Shown here in pieces: positions 44,227-51,813 of a stretch of 64,000 nt of DNA (position 1 is its first letter; every line of letters starts with the position of its first letter). The notes under the pieces are model-generated. The model was not told where the DNA came from and made no database searches. It saw only the letters and a program-made list of their open reading frames with translations. Location of the stretch: positions 248,001 through 312,000 of the forward strand of contig NW_026857083.1 of the NCBI RefSeq assembly GCF_026571515.1. Reading direction: 5' to 3'. This stretch comes from Ruditapes philippinarum. Lineage: Eukaryota. The translations under genes and the position numbers were made by a program.

Positions 44227-46122
44227 TCATGCAGTTACACATCTGAAAAAAAAGTTTAAAAAAGAATCTAAAAAAATAAGAAATAATAATCGTATTTACA
44301 GCTGATCGGTTGTTTAAAATGTATTTTGATTTTTGCATTTGCCATTGTTATATATTTTGCAATCTCTTTTATTTTCTTAGTATATCTGTATTGATATATA
44401 ATTATGGTCTTGATGGAAATAAATGAAAGACAATGAATTGTGACATTGTACATTATACAAACTTTCATAAGGTTGATTATTTGTTACATACACGAAACGT
44501 GTACATTAAATTATGAATATAAGTACTGATTTTGTTATTATTAAATCTTCTATAATAACTTACTTTCCCATTTCATCCAGTGGTACATCGTCCATTTCGT
44601 CCATTCCAGTACCATTGCATTTCAATCCAGATAAGCATGGACAAGAGAGTACAGTGTCGTTTGGTTTCCCAGAACCCATTTCTACAGGACATTCTGAAAA
44701 GTTACATGAAATATGTCGCATACAACTGTCCTTATCGCGTCCATGATATGACCAGTTTGAATATGTGAGAAACCTTAATTCCAGAGAAAGAACACATGTT
44801 TTGTATGTGTTTGGCAAGGCAATTGTACGCACTTCCTGCAACGGCTTGAAGATAAGTTGCGATTGGATGCAGTCATTTGCACATTGCGCCGACCTTGTCC
44901 AAAGTTTGACGAAAAGGAGTTGCGATTGATTTAAAGGAGACAAAAAGTTTTGGTATTTATTGTTATGAAGATATTAACAAAGGCACGTAAATAATACTAT
45001 AGTGTCAGTGTCATTCATTGATAAAGATTTGGTATTCAATGAAATATGTCGGTCAAAATATAAATACACTGTTCGATCTAAATTACAACTTAGCATTTAT
45101 TTCATTTGTAACCGTACTCCCTGTTAAACTTGGATTTTTTAAATCATGCTCTTATTCAATCGCGTACCGGACGAACTTATTCTTAAGTGTAATACCAGAA
45201 CCAACGTTTCCCATACTGGAGCAATGTCCATGTAAAGACTGTTCTCCGATTGGTCGATCGTTACTGACACAACACTCTAAGTCTGCGCAGTCGTCACCGG
45301 AAGAACATGACTGATTCACAGTTGTTTTTAATATCTCTACAGGCACACAGACACCTAAAATAACCAATAAGCTGTCAGAGCTAATTATCGTATATTTCTT
45401 ATTTTACGTACCGTATTTTCCCAAACAAACATTTATCAAATAAGAAACAATTGAATAAAATAACTTAGTTTACTATGGCATGCTCAAAACAGAAAATGAG
45501 GTTGAAAGTTGACCGTTAAAATGTTATTAGCAATTTGTTAAGAACAAGATAAAACGTGAAAAAACAGAGTTCAAACCCAGTTCTCCTCTATCGATAACAT
45601 CTATGCCAGTCCCGTTACATACTAAGCCACTTGCACATGGACAGTCATAGTACAGGTCCTTAATTCCTGTTTCTACCTCGTCAACGATGCATCCTTTATT
45701 AATAATTAAATATATAGTGCCTTTAACGGGTGAAAAATTAAACGTATTTTGAGCGTATTATACGACATTTAATGTAGATGATGTAAATTATGTGTGCGAT
45801 ACATGAAAAAAACCCACAAAATAAGGCATAAAGTTTACTAAGCAAAAAACAGAATAACAATTAAGTAGATAGAAACACATACTTTGTTTTCATTAAAATG
45901 TTGGACAATATGAGTTTTCATACTTTCTCCTTCTGCTCCTATTTTCTCGCAAATACCGTAAACAGGCGGACACCAGTCATACCATCCTGGATGGTCATGC
46001 ATATGGGTTTGGCTTTGATTAAATATCTCTTCCCTTGTTTTATTGAAACTCCTACAGCATTTCCCTACGTCACAATTGTAATTGGTGTAACAGCCTAAGT
46101 GTAAATCGCTTAAAACTATGGC
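44227..46122 (-). CDS. Tandem two-domain prokineticin/astakine/colipase-like Cys-rich protein, copy A (signal exon not found; 206 aa from exon 2)
   Basis: Exons 46122-45924, 45693-45577, 45354-45196, 44693-44564 and 44242-44227 (KCVTA*). Open, GT-AG, same phases as copy B. Two C-x5-C-x4-CC...C...C...CPC-x5-C...C domains. Confidence 0.8.
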
Positions 46123-46274
46123 CTGCAATGTATCAAAGAAATACACGTATGCTTTAACTGTCTTTATAATGTTATAAGATATAATTCTAAAGCCTTGAGT
46201 ATCATTTTAATCTATATTTATAGTAGATTCTATGCTTCCATATACCCGAACAAAATTTGCACAGGCTGATGAAA

Positions 46275-46613
46275 GTAGTGTTCAGTGAGAAGTAGTGATG
46301 GTGTAAGTAGTGTTCAGTTATAGGTATTAACGGTGTAAGTAGTGCTCAGTAAGAAGTATTCACGGTGTTAGTAATGTTCAGTGAGAAGTATTCACGGTGT
46401 AAGTAGTGTTCAGTGAGAAGTATTCATGGTGTAAGTAGTGTTCAGTGAGAAGTATTCATGGTGTAAGAAGTGTTCAGTGAGAAGTATTCACGGTGTAAGT
46501 AGTGTTCAGTGAGAAGTATTCACGGTGTAAGAAGTGTTCAGTGAGAAGTATTCATGGTGTAAGTAGTGTTCAGTGAGAAGTATTCACGGTGTAAGTAGTG
46601 ATTAGTGAGAAGT
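46275..46613. repeat. 32-bp minisatellite, about 10 copies (gtaagtagtgttcagtgagaagtattcacggt)
   Basis: Directly visible tandem array. Confidence 0.95.
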
Positions 46614-48156: not shown

Positions 48157-51100
48157 TTAAATCACACATCTGAAAAAAAAGAAAGAAACAATAACATTTT
48201 AGAAAAATATTTATAATCGTATTTGTAGCAATGGAACTGTATGTATATAACTTGACCTGTATAATTCATTTAGAACGACCCATCGCTTCTCTATCCAACT
48301 TTAGGCGTGGACGGTAGTTCGCACCTGACAATACCGTCCATGAACATGTGCAGGCTCAATCAAACCGAGCGTGCAACATTTTGGATTTTCTTTAGGGAAT
48401 TCCTTTTTTCTCTATTTTACTATGATTATTTGATTTATTTATTAAATTATGTAAATTTATAAATTTCCTTGGATACGTTAACTACCTGTGCTGTCAACCG
48501 ATAATTATGATTTCTTATTTATTACATATACGTGTAATCATACATTAACTTGTAAGTGATAGATATCAAATTGAATGTTGTAGAGAAACTTACTTTCCGA
48601 TTTCACCGAGGGGTACTTCGTACATTCCAATACCATGGCATGTCAGTCCAGATAAGCACGGGCAAGAGAATACAGTGTCACTTGGTTTTCCAGATCCCAT
48701 TTTCACAAGACATCCTGAATTGGTACGTTAAATATATCTGATTAATTTTTGTTCATTCTAAATGTGTGAGATTCTTCAATTCCCATTAATAATACCTTTT
48801 TTTGCATGAAAATGTTGATGAACTTGTCCTCACGACCTGCAACGGCTTAAGTAGTCAAAGCAATCGCAACTTTCCGGCCCTCTCCGTCAGTCTTCGGATA
48901 ATGCCGATTCCGTTCCGATTGGTTTTTCGGAACATCTCGGCGGTTACCGATAACCATCTTTACCCTCGCCCGTTACGTCACGCTTTTGCTACTGATCAGG
49001 GGAAGTAACCGCTGTGGGGAGTTTGATGAAAGGGACGAAAAGTTGCGAGAGACATATTTGAAGCAGCTCTTAAATGATATTATTGTATTAGTGTATGCTT
49101 AAATAATTAAGATTGGATATTCAATGTGGAAAAATATTTATGTCAAAATGTTCGATAGTTTTTTCTTCTATTCTATACATAATTATTTATTCACAATAAA
49201 GAACACCTTTGTTTACATGCACAATATAGTCAATATTAATGCCTCTCCAACCCAGGTGAAAATATGGATTATCAAATTCCGGGTCTGGTAATGAACCTAT
49301 TCTGCTGAAAGAGCAGATGCTAATTCCCCCGCTTACTCACCCAGCCCAGCGTGTTTGACATTACTCTATTTTTGCGCCAGAACAAAAACTGCCGGCAGTT
49401 TAGGCAAAAAGGGAAAGTAAACTTTTGGCTCATTTCCCAGGCTACCCCGCACCCATCCGGAGCATGGACCAGATTTGCAACCGACTGGCAAAGGTTGAAT
49501 GAAAAAATACAACTTTATTACTTTTTGTTATTATACCACCTGTTAAACTAAGATATAAAACATTTTGCACTTACTTGATCGCACGTTTGAATTAAAGCAT
49601 CGATTTTATATATTGACTATATTTTAAAGATATTTTAATAAAGCATTACCAGAACCAACAGTTCCCATGCTGGAGCAATGTCCATGTAACGAACGTTTTC
49701 CGATTGGTCGAACGTTACTGACACAGCATTCTGAGTCTGCGCAGTCGGCACCGGAAGAACATGGCTGATTCAGAGTTGCTTTTGCTATCTTTGCAGACAC
49801 ACAGACGCCTAAAATTAGGTAGAAGCAATAAGTTATTAGCGCCAATAGCCCATAAGTGTATAAAGTATTGATTATCAACGAAAACTATAAATGAATACAC
49901 ATACAGATGAAAAAGAAACAAGAGGATTTCAAAAGTGTGAACTACTTGATAAAAAAACCTCGTACCTCACAATAATGCATTTCTAATTTTAATTGTAGAT
50001 TTCACTCCTTATAAGAAGCATATATTGTAATAATCTGTAGACTTTGGCACTACTGTCGACTTGCCATGCAACATATTAATACAACAATGTATATCAATAG
50101 AACCATTTGTTTCTGGCCAAGATAAAGAGTGTTTCTGTCAAGCTATAGGTAAATTTATCACAGTGTGTAAGACAGGGGTCAAATCTACAGCAAGTATGAT
50201 TAAGTTCATACCCGATTCTCCCTTGTTGATGACAGTTGTTCCAGTCCCGTTACATACGAAGCCACTTGCACATGGGCAGTCATAGTGTAAGCCAACAGTT
50301 CCAGTTTTCAACTCGTCAACGATGCATCCTATGTAAATGAATATATGATCGATATACGGTTAATATTGTTCTTTACAAACCATATATTTTAACATACAAA
50401 ATGTTGCTATTGTCCATGATAGTTTGTAATAGAGTAGAAAATATAATGGAAAAAAATAATTTTAATTATGTTTAAACATATGTTATCTGGCAATCAGGCT
50501 ACAGCGTTGGTGTTAGACACTATCCAGTATTTTCTGCATACCAGATATTACCTCAGACTTATGTTGATTCTTTAACAGCTTTCTTTTTTCAGGGTTGCCA
50601 AACTTTTACCTCAGTTATTTTTCAACAAACATGGAAATATATGTTTAAAATATAGTCAATATGTGTGTATATAATTACAAACTGTATAAAGTGTAGCGAA
50701 CTCTTGAAACTTCTTTATCTTTCTATGCCATTTAATGTATTTGTATATTCCATTAGGTATTAAGTTTAAATGTAACATTTAGCAAAAACAGATTTTTCTC
50801 GGCCCTTTCCGTCAAAATTCGGATAGATAAAAGCCGAGAAGTTCCGAATGGCAAATTAAATGTCTTAAATGTTTAAGTCGTTACGATAAGTAGCCATACG
50901 TTCTCCTTGTGTTCCCATTTTCTGGCAACTACCGTGGGCATATCGCATCAGGTTGTAGTCTATATGATCAAGAACTACCCTCTTTCCCCTTGGTTGATTG
51001 AAACTCCTGCAACATTCGCCTACGTCACATTGGTCACTGGTGTCGCAATAGCCTGCCAGAGCACCGTGTCCTAATGCAGGTATCGCCTGTTTTATTACAA

Positions 51101-51813
51101 AACTATTCATTAAATTTGGAAAAGGAAGCTAACGCTATAGTCTGTAATAGACATGAAAACAGGCCATTCAAGTACCAGATCAAGATCAAAAGGATCAAAA
51201 TTAAAAACTCAATTATTTTCCATTCATTATCATCATAGGTTAAATATTAAATATTAACTTGATAAGAATTGACACAAAACAGCATGCTTACGAAATTTTA
51301 GAATAAATCTATTGTTACTTGATAGGCTATGGGCATTTTACAGCTGAACCAAATATTGATCTTGATCCTAATTTCGATGCTTATTTTGATCCGGTTATTT
51401 TTGGACTTGCATTGTTATTCCTCAAATTTATCCCAAATCAGAAGTGTTTCTTTGCAAATCAGTATTTGTTGAACATTTAGTTAATGTGCCATTTAATGTC
51501 ACAAAAATACGATCACATATCACCTAGATTCACAAAGAAAATGAAACATTTGATCCTGATCCTGATCTCTTCAAAGTGGACACGGGTACTGACATCTTTG
51601 TTGATGTTATTCTCGTTTTAAATATTTCATTAAGATTTCACATTAATTGGTTTAATGATTATAATGTGTATTTGAAAGTGACAGACACAAAAGCAAAATA
51701 TAAACTAAACTTTGTGATTGAAAAACTGTATTTTTTAACAAACCAAAGAAATGACTTACCAACGATACGCCATTCAATCCTAATATAATAAAAATTGACA
51801 ATACAGTCTTCAT
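48157..51813 (-). CDS. Secreted tandem two-domain prokineticin/astakine/colipase-like Cys-rich protein, copy B (216 aa)
   Basis: Exons 51813-51760 (signal MKTVLSIFIILGLNGVSL), 51086-50900, 50328-50212, 49808-49650, 48714-48594 and 48169-48157 (KCVI*), 651 nt. 20 Cys in two 10-Cys domains. AATAAA about 50 nt after the stop. Confidence 0.88.
48865..49048. mobile_element. CpG-rich MITE-like insertion in copy B intron 4
   Basis: Imperfect inverted ends TCGCAACTTTCCGGCCCT / AGGGACGAAAAGTTGCGA. Related remnants occur in the matching intron of copy A (about 44840-44950). Confidence 0.5.

What the first reader, a model, noticed from the sequence alone, without database searches (positions are those of the whole stretch)
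44227..51813. Strongly directional divergence between the two Cys-rich paralogues
Hand comparison of the mature regions. Copy B has 17 D/E and 17 K/R, one sequon (NGT), and a GKR site in each domain. Copy A has 33 D/E and 13 K/R, six sequons (NKT, NQS, NGT, NQS, NDT, NGT), and both GKR sites are separately absent (PRGKR to TREEI, PIGKR to PIGEQ). Copy A also has a His-rich loop (HMHDH) with an extra, probably unpaired Cys, and a 9-nt duplication giving MDEMDD. All 20 framework Cys, reading frames and splice phases are retained. This pattern suggests neofunctionalisation into an uncleaved, acidic, heavily glycosylated protein rather than decay. Roles in shell matrix, mucus, metal binding or as a receptor decoy are conjecture, and the direction of change needs an outgroup.
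Basis: partly seen in the sequence, partly recalled or inferred. Interest (0 to 1): 0.7.

Follow-up and report, generated by a model that had tools for sequence, protein, structure and literature searches.

The report
Clam hormone-like duplicate turned acidic glycoprotein
A clam carries two neighbouring copies of a prokineticin-like gene: one kept the family's predicted hormone-cutting sites, while the other, which is transcribed, lost them, became far more acidic than random mutation would give, gained predicted sugar-attachment sites, and likely took on a new job as an uncut binding protein outside the cell.

Summary
Two tandem minus-strand genes each encode two colipase-fold (prokineticin/astakine-like) domains. 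Copy B is RefSeq LOC132748709 and copy A is LOC132748708 of Ruditapes philippinarum.

A Mercenaria outgroup fixes the direction: 39 residues changed only in A, 5 only in B (p=3e-7). The loop dibasic site is a family hallmark (94 of 105 domains), and A lost it in both domains. A gained 16 D/E where 4-5 are expected (P<=2e-4) and kept all 20 cysteines. It is spliced and polyadenylated in RNA data. Branch dN/dS is about 0.75 (0.44-1.26), so positive selection is not shown by that test.

Two corrections. A's signal exon is in transcripts but missing from this assembly. The extra cysteine and the HDH motif vary between alleles in a hypervariable loop, and the duplication is missing from one A-type protein.

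Best reading: neofunctionalisation into an uncut, acidic, glycosylated secreted binding protein. Its partner and tissue are untested. It is a new variant of a known family, of moderate interest.

The parts
51760..51813 (-). Copy B exon 1, start codon and predicted signal peptide (18 codons)
   Evidence: spliced joint 51085/51759 in X1 and X2; identical to RefSeq protein P0001
50900..51086 (-). Copy B exon 2: domain 1 first half, with PRGKR at 50979-50993
50212..50328 (-). Copy B exon 3: domain 1 second half (CPC, sequon NGT)
49650..49808 (-). Copy B exon 4: linker and domain 2 first half, with PIGKR at 49693-49707
48594..48714 (-). Copy B exon 5: domain 2 second half
48062..48169 (-). Copy B exon 6: last Cys, stop at 48157, 3' UTR seen to 48062
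46123..48061 (.). Interval where copy A's promoter and signal exon should lie. It holds a 32-nt tandem array (46273-46615), a dispersed palindromic repeat (about 46610-46750) and a 45-nt tandem array (46910-47776), but no signal exon
45924..46122 (-). Copy A exon 2 (first exon present): TREEI at 46024-46038, sequons NKT and NQS, extended finger-1 loop
45970..45996 (-). Hypervariable stretch of A's finger-1 loop: 8 differences within 26 nt between the assembly and the X1 transcript, including the extra Cys codon (45970-45972, Leu in X1) and the Asp of HMHDH (Ile in X1)
45577..45693 (-). Copy A exon 3: domain 1 second half; Pfam Colipase_C 25.3 bits, above the 23.7 cut-off
45196..45354 (-). Copy A exon 4: PIGEQ at 45239-45253, sequon NQS
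44564..44693 (-). Copy A exon 5: sequons NDT and NGT, 9-nt duplication (MDEMDD, 44587-44604)
44156..44242 (-). Copy A exon 6: last Cys, stop at 44227, poly(A) site at 44156
   Evidence: poly(T) loose end at 44156 in X2

Best explanation
Copy A is a transcribed, fast-evolving duplicate of the clam's two-domain prokineticin-like gene that selection likely converted from a predicted convertase-cut, amidated secreted precursor into an uncut, acidic, likely glycan-coated single chain, which would act as a protease-resistant extracellular binding protein using its variable finger loop as the likely recognition surface. Shown: the duplication post-dates the split from Mercenaria; A carries nearly all the change; both loop G-K-R motifs are gone; D/E gains are spread over both domains; the 20-Cys frame is intact; spliced polyadenylated transcripts with their own signal-type exon exist. 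Inferred from general knowledge of prohormone processing: in B, convertase cuts after KR, carboxypeptidase trims the basic residues and the Gly gives an amide, leaving disulfide-linked chains. A cannot be processed this way. Inferred and untested: glycan occupancy, protease resistance, expression in the same tissue as B (likely the digestive gland, as reported for oyster members), and a defence or ligand-recognition role.
For: Relative rate 39 vs 5 with Mercenaria (p=3e-7); 30:5, 28:4 and 24:2 with three other outgroups. Tree groups A with B (97/91), A stem 0.52 vs B 0.046. KR/RR is in the loop of 94 of 105 family domains, G+dibasic in 89, and in every loop seen in 11 of 11 metagenome loci. 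Net charge of the aligned core is -15 vs +3 (sd 4) expected, 0 of 1500 in each of four models. There are 16 D/E gains vs 4-5 even when the same codons are re-drawn (P<=2e-4, six models). 5 of 10 Lys became Glu (P<=0.0013). All 20 Cys kept in 1 of 1500 unconstrained runs. A is the most acidic and most sequon-dense of 75 homologues with a full domain. Splicing and poly(A). 9 of 9 polymorphic codons change the residue in A vs 2 of 13 in B (Fisher p=2e-4). Eight X1 differences fall within 26 nt (P<=2e-4). All oyster prokineticin transcripts are expressed in the digestive gland (PMC8398477, passage).
Against: Branch dN/dS for A is 0.75 (0.44-1.26) with an assumed equal dS split, and 0.37 if all dS is put on A; no outgroup DNA was close enough for a branch-site test. 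An all-replacement polymorphism pattern is also what relaxed constraint gives, and the clustered differences could be one complex mutation. The domain-1 loop has indels, so the residue matching there is uncertain. The signal exon is missing from the assembly. A's contig depth is well below B's in both runs (about 30 vs 750-1000 in X1; 90-180 vs 400-1300 in X2), a rough measure only. No protein, glycan, tissue or partner evidence was obtained.
Confidence: 0.5

Rival explanations
1. Relaxed constraint: selection keeps only the disulfide fold of a redundant, weakly expressed copy, and the surface drifts; acid and sequon gains are tolerated rather than favoured.
For: dN/dS for A is compatible with 1. 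9 of 9 polymorphic codons are replacements. Loss of both dibasic sites is common by chance (P about 0.23). Lower contig depth than B.
Against: 16 D/E gains vs 3 losses; the excess survives a null that fixes the changed codons and three transition ratios. Changes include both A>G and G>A, so no single mutation bias explains it.
Confidence: 0.2
2. Decoy or antagonist: A keeps the shape of B but cannot be matured, so it would bind B's receptor or B itself and damp the signal.
For: Same fold (models). Both copies are detected in X1 and X2, and neither shows spliced reads in X21 or X23. The processing motifs specifically are lost.
Against: A decoy should conserve the binding surface, but A changed 49 of 170 core residues, including the nearly invariant Gly of the PLGE motif. 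No receptor is known for this family in protostomes (PMC8557429, passage).
Confidence: 0.12
3. Mineral or metal handling: A was recruited as an acidic glycoprotein for calcium carbonate or phosphate deposits (shell, extrapallial fluid, digestive-gland granules) or for metal binding.
For: pI 4.4 and six sequons. Acidic glycoproteins are typical of mollusc shell matrices (recalled). The acid gain is directional.
Against: The extra Cys and the HDH motif are allele-specific. The acids are scattered, not in Asp-rich runs. Oyster members are reported in the digestive gland and male gonad. A paper search on prokineticin, clam, proteome, mucus and shell matrix listed nothing that points to such a member (listing only).
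Confidence: 0.1
4. A gene being lost: A was functional once, but null alleles now segregate, and the assembled haplotype, which lacks the signal exon, is one of them.
For: Two exon-1 motifs from transcripts are absent from the window and the assembly. RefSeq models A from an internal Met (P0111). The assembly allele has derived residues at three core codons where transcribed alleles keep the ancestral residue.
Against: Other animals make spliced, polyadenylated transcripts with a signal-type exon. No stop or frameshift is seen in the window copy. The gap sits among tandem arrays, where assemblies often fail.
Confidence: 0.08

Closest known systems
Molluscan prokineticin-like proteins (Cragi-prokineticin 1-5, PMC8398477; catalogue in PMC6425005; UniRef 'Prokineticin domain-containing protein' such as K1RJZ2)
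   Same: Secreted, ten Cys per domain, no AVITGA start. Direct homologues found. Loop G-KR motif shared by B and most members.
   Different: B and A have two tandem domains. A lacks both loop dibasic sites and is the most acidic and sequon-rich member among 75 examined.
Astakines (crayfish, shrimp, CgAstakine), blood-cell cytokines
   Same: Same ten-Cys prokineticin domain without AVITGA (PMC8398477 and PMC9756803, passages).
   Different: No activity was tested here. The apple-snail member's role in haematopoiesis is disputed (PMC9178244, passages). Astakines are single-domain (recalled).
Colipase / Dickkopf CRD2 / Bv8 / mamba intestinal toxin 1 fold
   Same: B's model matches 1eth_B (Z 8.0, rmsd 4.1, 79 aligned), 3s2k_C (Z 7.9, rmsd 2.2, 65) and 2kra (Z 6.5, rmsd 3.3, 70); the same set tops Foldseek.
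   Different: 20-29% identity only; a shared fold shows no shared function. No Dickkopf N-terminal domain was found.
Dreissena polymorpha paralogues LOC127865526 and LOC127865490 (P0053, P0079)
   Same: Family members that also lack the loop KR/RR and carry sequons, 3 and 2 in the whole proteins.
   Different: A separate long branch in the tree (P0053). Not acidic outside the loop. Uncharacterised.

Membership tests
Molluscan prokineticin/astakine-like proteins | Ten cysteines per domain with C-x5-C-x4-CC ... C-P-C spacing | tested here: met
   20 framework Cys in both copies, aligned with homologues
Molluscan prokineticin/astakine-like proteins | Colipase-type fold | tested here: met
   AlphaFold model of B, pLDDT 85; top structural hits are colipase, Dkk1 CRD2 and Bv8. 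The truncated A model has pLDDT 82 and a similar strand pattern but was not searched.
Molluscan prokineticin/astakine-like proteins | Signal peptide | tested here: inconclusive
   B has a hydrophobic 18-residue first exon (by inspection; no predictor was run). For A, both ends of a homologous exon are seen in X1 transcript contigs, but the exon is not in the assembly.
Molluscan prokineticin/astakine-like proteins | Sequence homology to named members | tested here: met
   K1RJZ2 E 8e-44; cluster members named 'Prokineticin domain-containing protein'
Molluscan prokineticin/astakine-like proteins | G plus dibasic processing motif in the finger-1 loop (common, derived here from the alignment, not a published criterion) | tested here: not met
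   Met by B in both domains, not met by A in either; 89 of 105 family domains have it
Pfam Prokineticin PF06607 | Gathering score 21.6 bits | tested here: not met
   B 13.7 bits; no hit for the truncated A model; an oyster member named prokineticin-domain also falls short, 17.7
Vertebrate prokineticin / Bv8 / AVIT proteins | N-terminal AVITGA | tested here: not met
   Mature starts are AIPALG (B) and AIVLSD (A)
Dickkopf | N-terminal Dickkopf_N domain before the colipase domain | tested here: not met
   No Dickkopf_N hit at E<=0.1; both domains are of the ten-Cys colipase type
Astakine (functional) | Promotes haemocyte production | not testable with these tools
   Needs recombinant protein
Colipase (functional) | Binds and activates a lipase at lipid interfaces | not tested
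   Fold match only; Pfam Colipase_C passes its cut-off for one A exon
Acidic shell-matrix proteins | Presence in shell or extrapallial proteome, mantle expression | not testable with these tools
   Run tissues are not given

The most novel reading that the evidence does not exclude
A prohormone-like cytokine family in bivalves repeatedly spawns uncut, glycosylated copies (Ruditapes copy A; Dreissena P0053 and P0079) that are recruited as polymorphic recognition molecules. In the Manila clam the copy is under selection for negative charge, has a finger loop under diversifying selection, and segregates with a null allele lacking the signal exon: a hormone-to-defence switch caught in progress.
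Probability: 0.15. Interest if true: 0.72.

Novelty: new variant of a known kind. Interest (0 to 1): 0.45.

Why it matters
Protostome prokineticin-like proteins have no known cognate receptor (PMC8557429) and an unclear role. The pair is a natural experiment: a conserved copy with the family's cleavage motifs beside a sister copy that lost both and changed surface charge on the same fold. Comparing them tests directly whether the loop is cut and amidated in vivo and what the uncut form does. A polymorphic, possibly presence/absence gene in a farmed clam could also matter for disease-resistance genetics. The RefSeq model of A is 5'-truncated and needs correcting.

Tried and rejected
Shared first exon (B exon 1 spliced to A exon 2): rejected, because A transcripts carry their own exon, 8 of 30 letters different from B's, with a different start. 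A hidden signal exon in 46123-48156: no credible candidate; the best match to B exon 1 was reached by 166 of 200 shuffles. Acidic state ancestral: rejected. Gene conversion from A into B alleles: only 4 of 13 B variants match the A base, so not supported. Frameshift origin of A's loop: the nucleotide alignment changes with the gap penalty, unresolved. Outgroup DNA for a branch-site test: 11 metagenome loci were too distant, 67-83% over short pieces. More A alleles in the protein collection: none for exon 2. A general link between KR loss and acidity: not seen in the 8 other KR-less domains. No complex prediction was run, since no partner is claimed. Raw-read runs X21 and X23 gave no spliced reads for either gene at 4-6% of the run read. 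Paper searches: the locus identifiers gave 0 papers; colipase+bivalve+digestive gland gave 0; Ruditapes+prokineticin gave 4 and prokineticin+mollusc+duplication+positive selection gave 2, none on this locus by title or abstract start. Figure 2 and Supplementary Figure S1 of PMC8398477, which may mark cleavage sites on oyster prokineticins, could not be seen.
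Full report
Observation. The window is G000:C5570:248001-312000 of a 1.41 Gb assembly. Two related genes lie head to tail on the minus strand. Copy B has six exons from 51813 to 48157 and is identical to RefSeq LOC132748709 of Ruditapes philippinarum. Copy A has five exons from 46122 to 44227 and corresponds to LOC132748708, which RefSeq models from an internal methionine as 166 aa. 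A third, more distant member lies on contig C10013 and keeps dibasic-type sites in both loops (RefSeq LOC132715930).

Family. Each protein is two ten-cysteine domains. The AlphaFold model of B (pLDDT 85) matches colipase (Z 8.0), Dickkopf-1 CRD2 (7.9) and Bv8 (6.5); Foldseek ranks the same set first, though none reaches E 0.001. Homologues are bivalve and other molluscan proteins, several named prokineticin-domain proteins. Pfam Prokineticin is hit below its cut-off. There is no AVITGA start and no Dickkopf N-terminal domain, so these are molluscan prokineticin/astakine-like proteins, not vertebrate prokineticins or Dickkopfs. Of 109 homologues examined (A-type P0003 left out, B included), 75 gave 105 complete domains and 34 gave none; 94 of the 105 have KR or RR in the loop after the CC pair, and 89 have Gly before the basic pair. 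These loops are among the least confident stretches of the model (pLDDT 64-66), as expected for exposed loops. By general knowledge of prohormone processing this is a convertase and amidation signal; cleavage was not shown here. An earlier unreviewed note of this scan made the same point for oyster genes.

Direction. With Mercenaria (82% identical to B) as outgroup, 39 residues changed only in A, 5 only in B, and 10 differ in all three (p=3e-7). Three further outgroups agree. The N-terminal 13 residues and the unalignable loop were left out. The tree joins A and B (97/91) to the exclusion of Mercenaria, with an A stem of 0.52 against 0.046 for B. The duplication is therefore younger than that split, and the acidic, uncut state is derived.

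Selection. Pairwise dN is 0.169 and dS 0.358 over 170 codons. Splitting dS equally gives omega about 0.75 (0.44-1.26) for A and 0.19 for B; with all dS on A it is 0.37. Omega above 1 is not shown. The kind of change is more telling. Among 49 changed core residues there are 16 gains and 3 losses of D/E. Random substitution gives a net charge of +3 (sd 4) against the observed -15, never reached in 1500 runs of four models. Re-drawing outcomes at the same codons gives 4-5 D/E gains, P<=2e-4. Five of ten lysines became glutamate. Sequon gain has P<=0.002 under the free null and 0.013-0.03 under the strict one. Loss of both dibasic sites alone is unremarkable (P about 0.23); loss of all four basic residues has P about 0.004, with the caveat that the domain-1 loop carries indels. 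Unconstrained drift keeps all 20 cysteines in 1 of 1500 runs. These statistics were picked after the pattern was seen. Outside the loop, A domain 2 (-10) lies beyond the range of 91 KR-bearing domains (lowest -8), while A domain 1 (-7) is in the tail.

Expression. Four of 24 listed runs were laid. In contigs of X1 and X2, A is spliced at all four introns between them, with a poly(A) tail at 44156, and B at all five. Contig depth is lower for A than for B in both, which is only a rough measure. Raw-read runs X21 and X23 show no spliced reads of either gene in the 4-6% read, which fits restricted expression of both. Tissues are not given. [quoted passage not shown]

The missing exon. The X1 transcript of A runs on 76 letters upstream of 46123 into a sequence that resembles B's exon 1 but differs from it and starts with its own ATG. 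Neither of two motifs from it is in the window (3 mismatches allowed) or in the assembly (1 mismatch). The 1.9 kb between the genes is mostly two tandem arrays and a dispersed repeat. Either the assembly lost the exon or the sequenced animal carries a deletion; I could not tell which.

Alleles. All 9 codons with listed differences in A change the residue, against 2 of 13 in B (Fisher p=2e-4). The tables were cut by 7 and 31 rows, and two of B's silent sites come from X21 alone. Eight X1 differences fall within 26 nt of A's finger-1 loop (P<=2e-4 if uniform). They turn the extra Cys into Leu and HMHDH into HMHIH. X2 contigs do not cover most of this exon at 92% likeness, which may mean a still more distant allele (inference). 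The MDEMDD duplication is kept in X2 as MDDMDD but is absent from the A-type protein P0003, whose species is not given. TREEI, PIGEQ and the sequons show no listed difference that removes them where the contigs cover them.

Mechanism. B looks like the conserved family form: secreted, and predicted to be cut and amidated in each domain while held together by disulfides. A keeps the scaffold but cannot be cut there, has fewer lysines, more acids across both domains and five more glycan sites. I read this as a likely switch to an uncut, protease-resistant, polyanionic glycoprotein that binds something outside the cell through a variable loop, most likely in the digestive gland or its secretion (0.5). 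Rivals are relaxed constraint (0.2), decoy (0.12), mineral or metal handling (0.1) and ongoing loss (0.08).

Literature seen. Passages of PMC8398477 (and two supplement rows), PMC8557429, PMC6425005, PMC9756803 and PMC9178244; everything else as search listings only. Searches found nothing on this locus. Figures that may mark cleavage sites on oyster members could not be seen.

Verdict. This is a real and statistically clear case of asymmetric, charge-directed divergence after duplication in a poorly understood secreted family. It is a new variant of a known kind, with function untested. Interest 0.45.

Noticed in passing
window 33882-35147, 37813-39093 and 56276-57373, minus strand: Three long reading frames with Pfam Gly_transf_sug (DXD glycosyltransferase, PF04488) flank the pair, two on one side and one on the other. 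Proximity only; no link to the glycosylated copy was tested.
   Followed up: partly
G000:C10013 about 29200-31800 (L003, L009): A third two-domain family member with PIGKR and PIAKR loops.
   Followed up: partly
window 50249-50297 (copy B exon 3): A B allele with five silent differences in 49 nt at near-equal depth in X2, showing deep neutral diversity at the locus.
   Followed up: partly
window 48651 (copy B exon 5): All three runs with coverage read Phe where the assembly has Ser at codon 194, so the assembly allele may be rare or in error.
   Followed up: no
window 46154: An X2 contig leaves the window sequence here into unrelated letters, which may be an insertion polymorphism in A's first intron.
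   Followed up: no
L012-L022: Another bivalve in metagenome assemblies has many tandem one- and two-domain copies of this family, all with G plus dibasic loops.
   Followed up: partly
P0053, P0079 (Dreissena polymorpha LOC127865526, LOC127865490): Family members that also lack the loop cleavage motif and carry sequons, a possible parallel to copy A.
   Followed up: partly
window 52091-53709: A 48-nt tandem array of about 34 copies just upstream of copy B.
   Followed up: no
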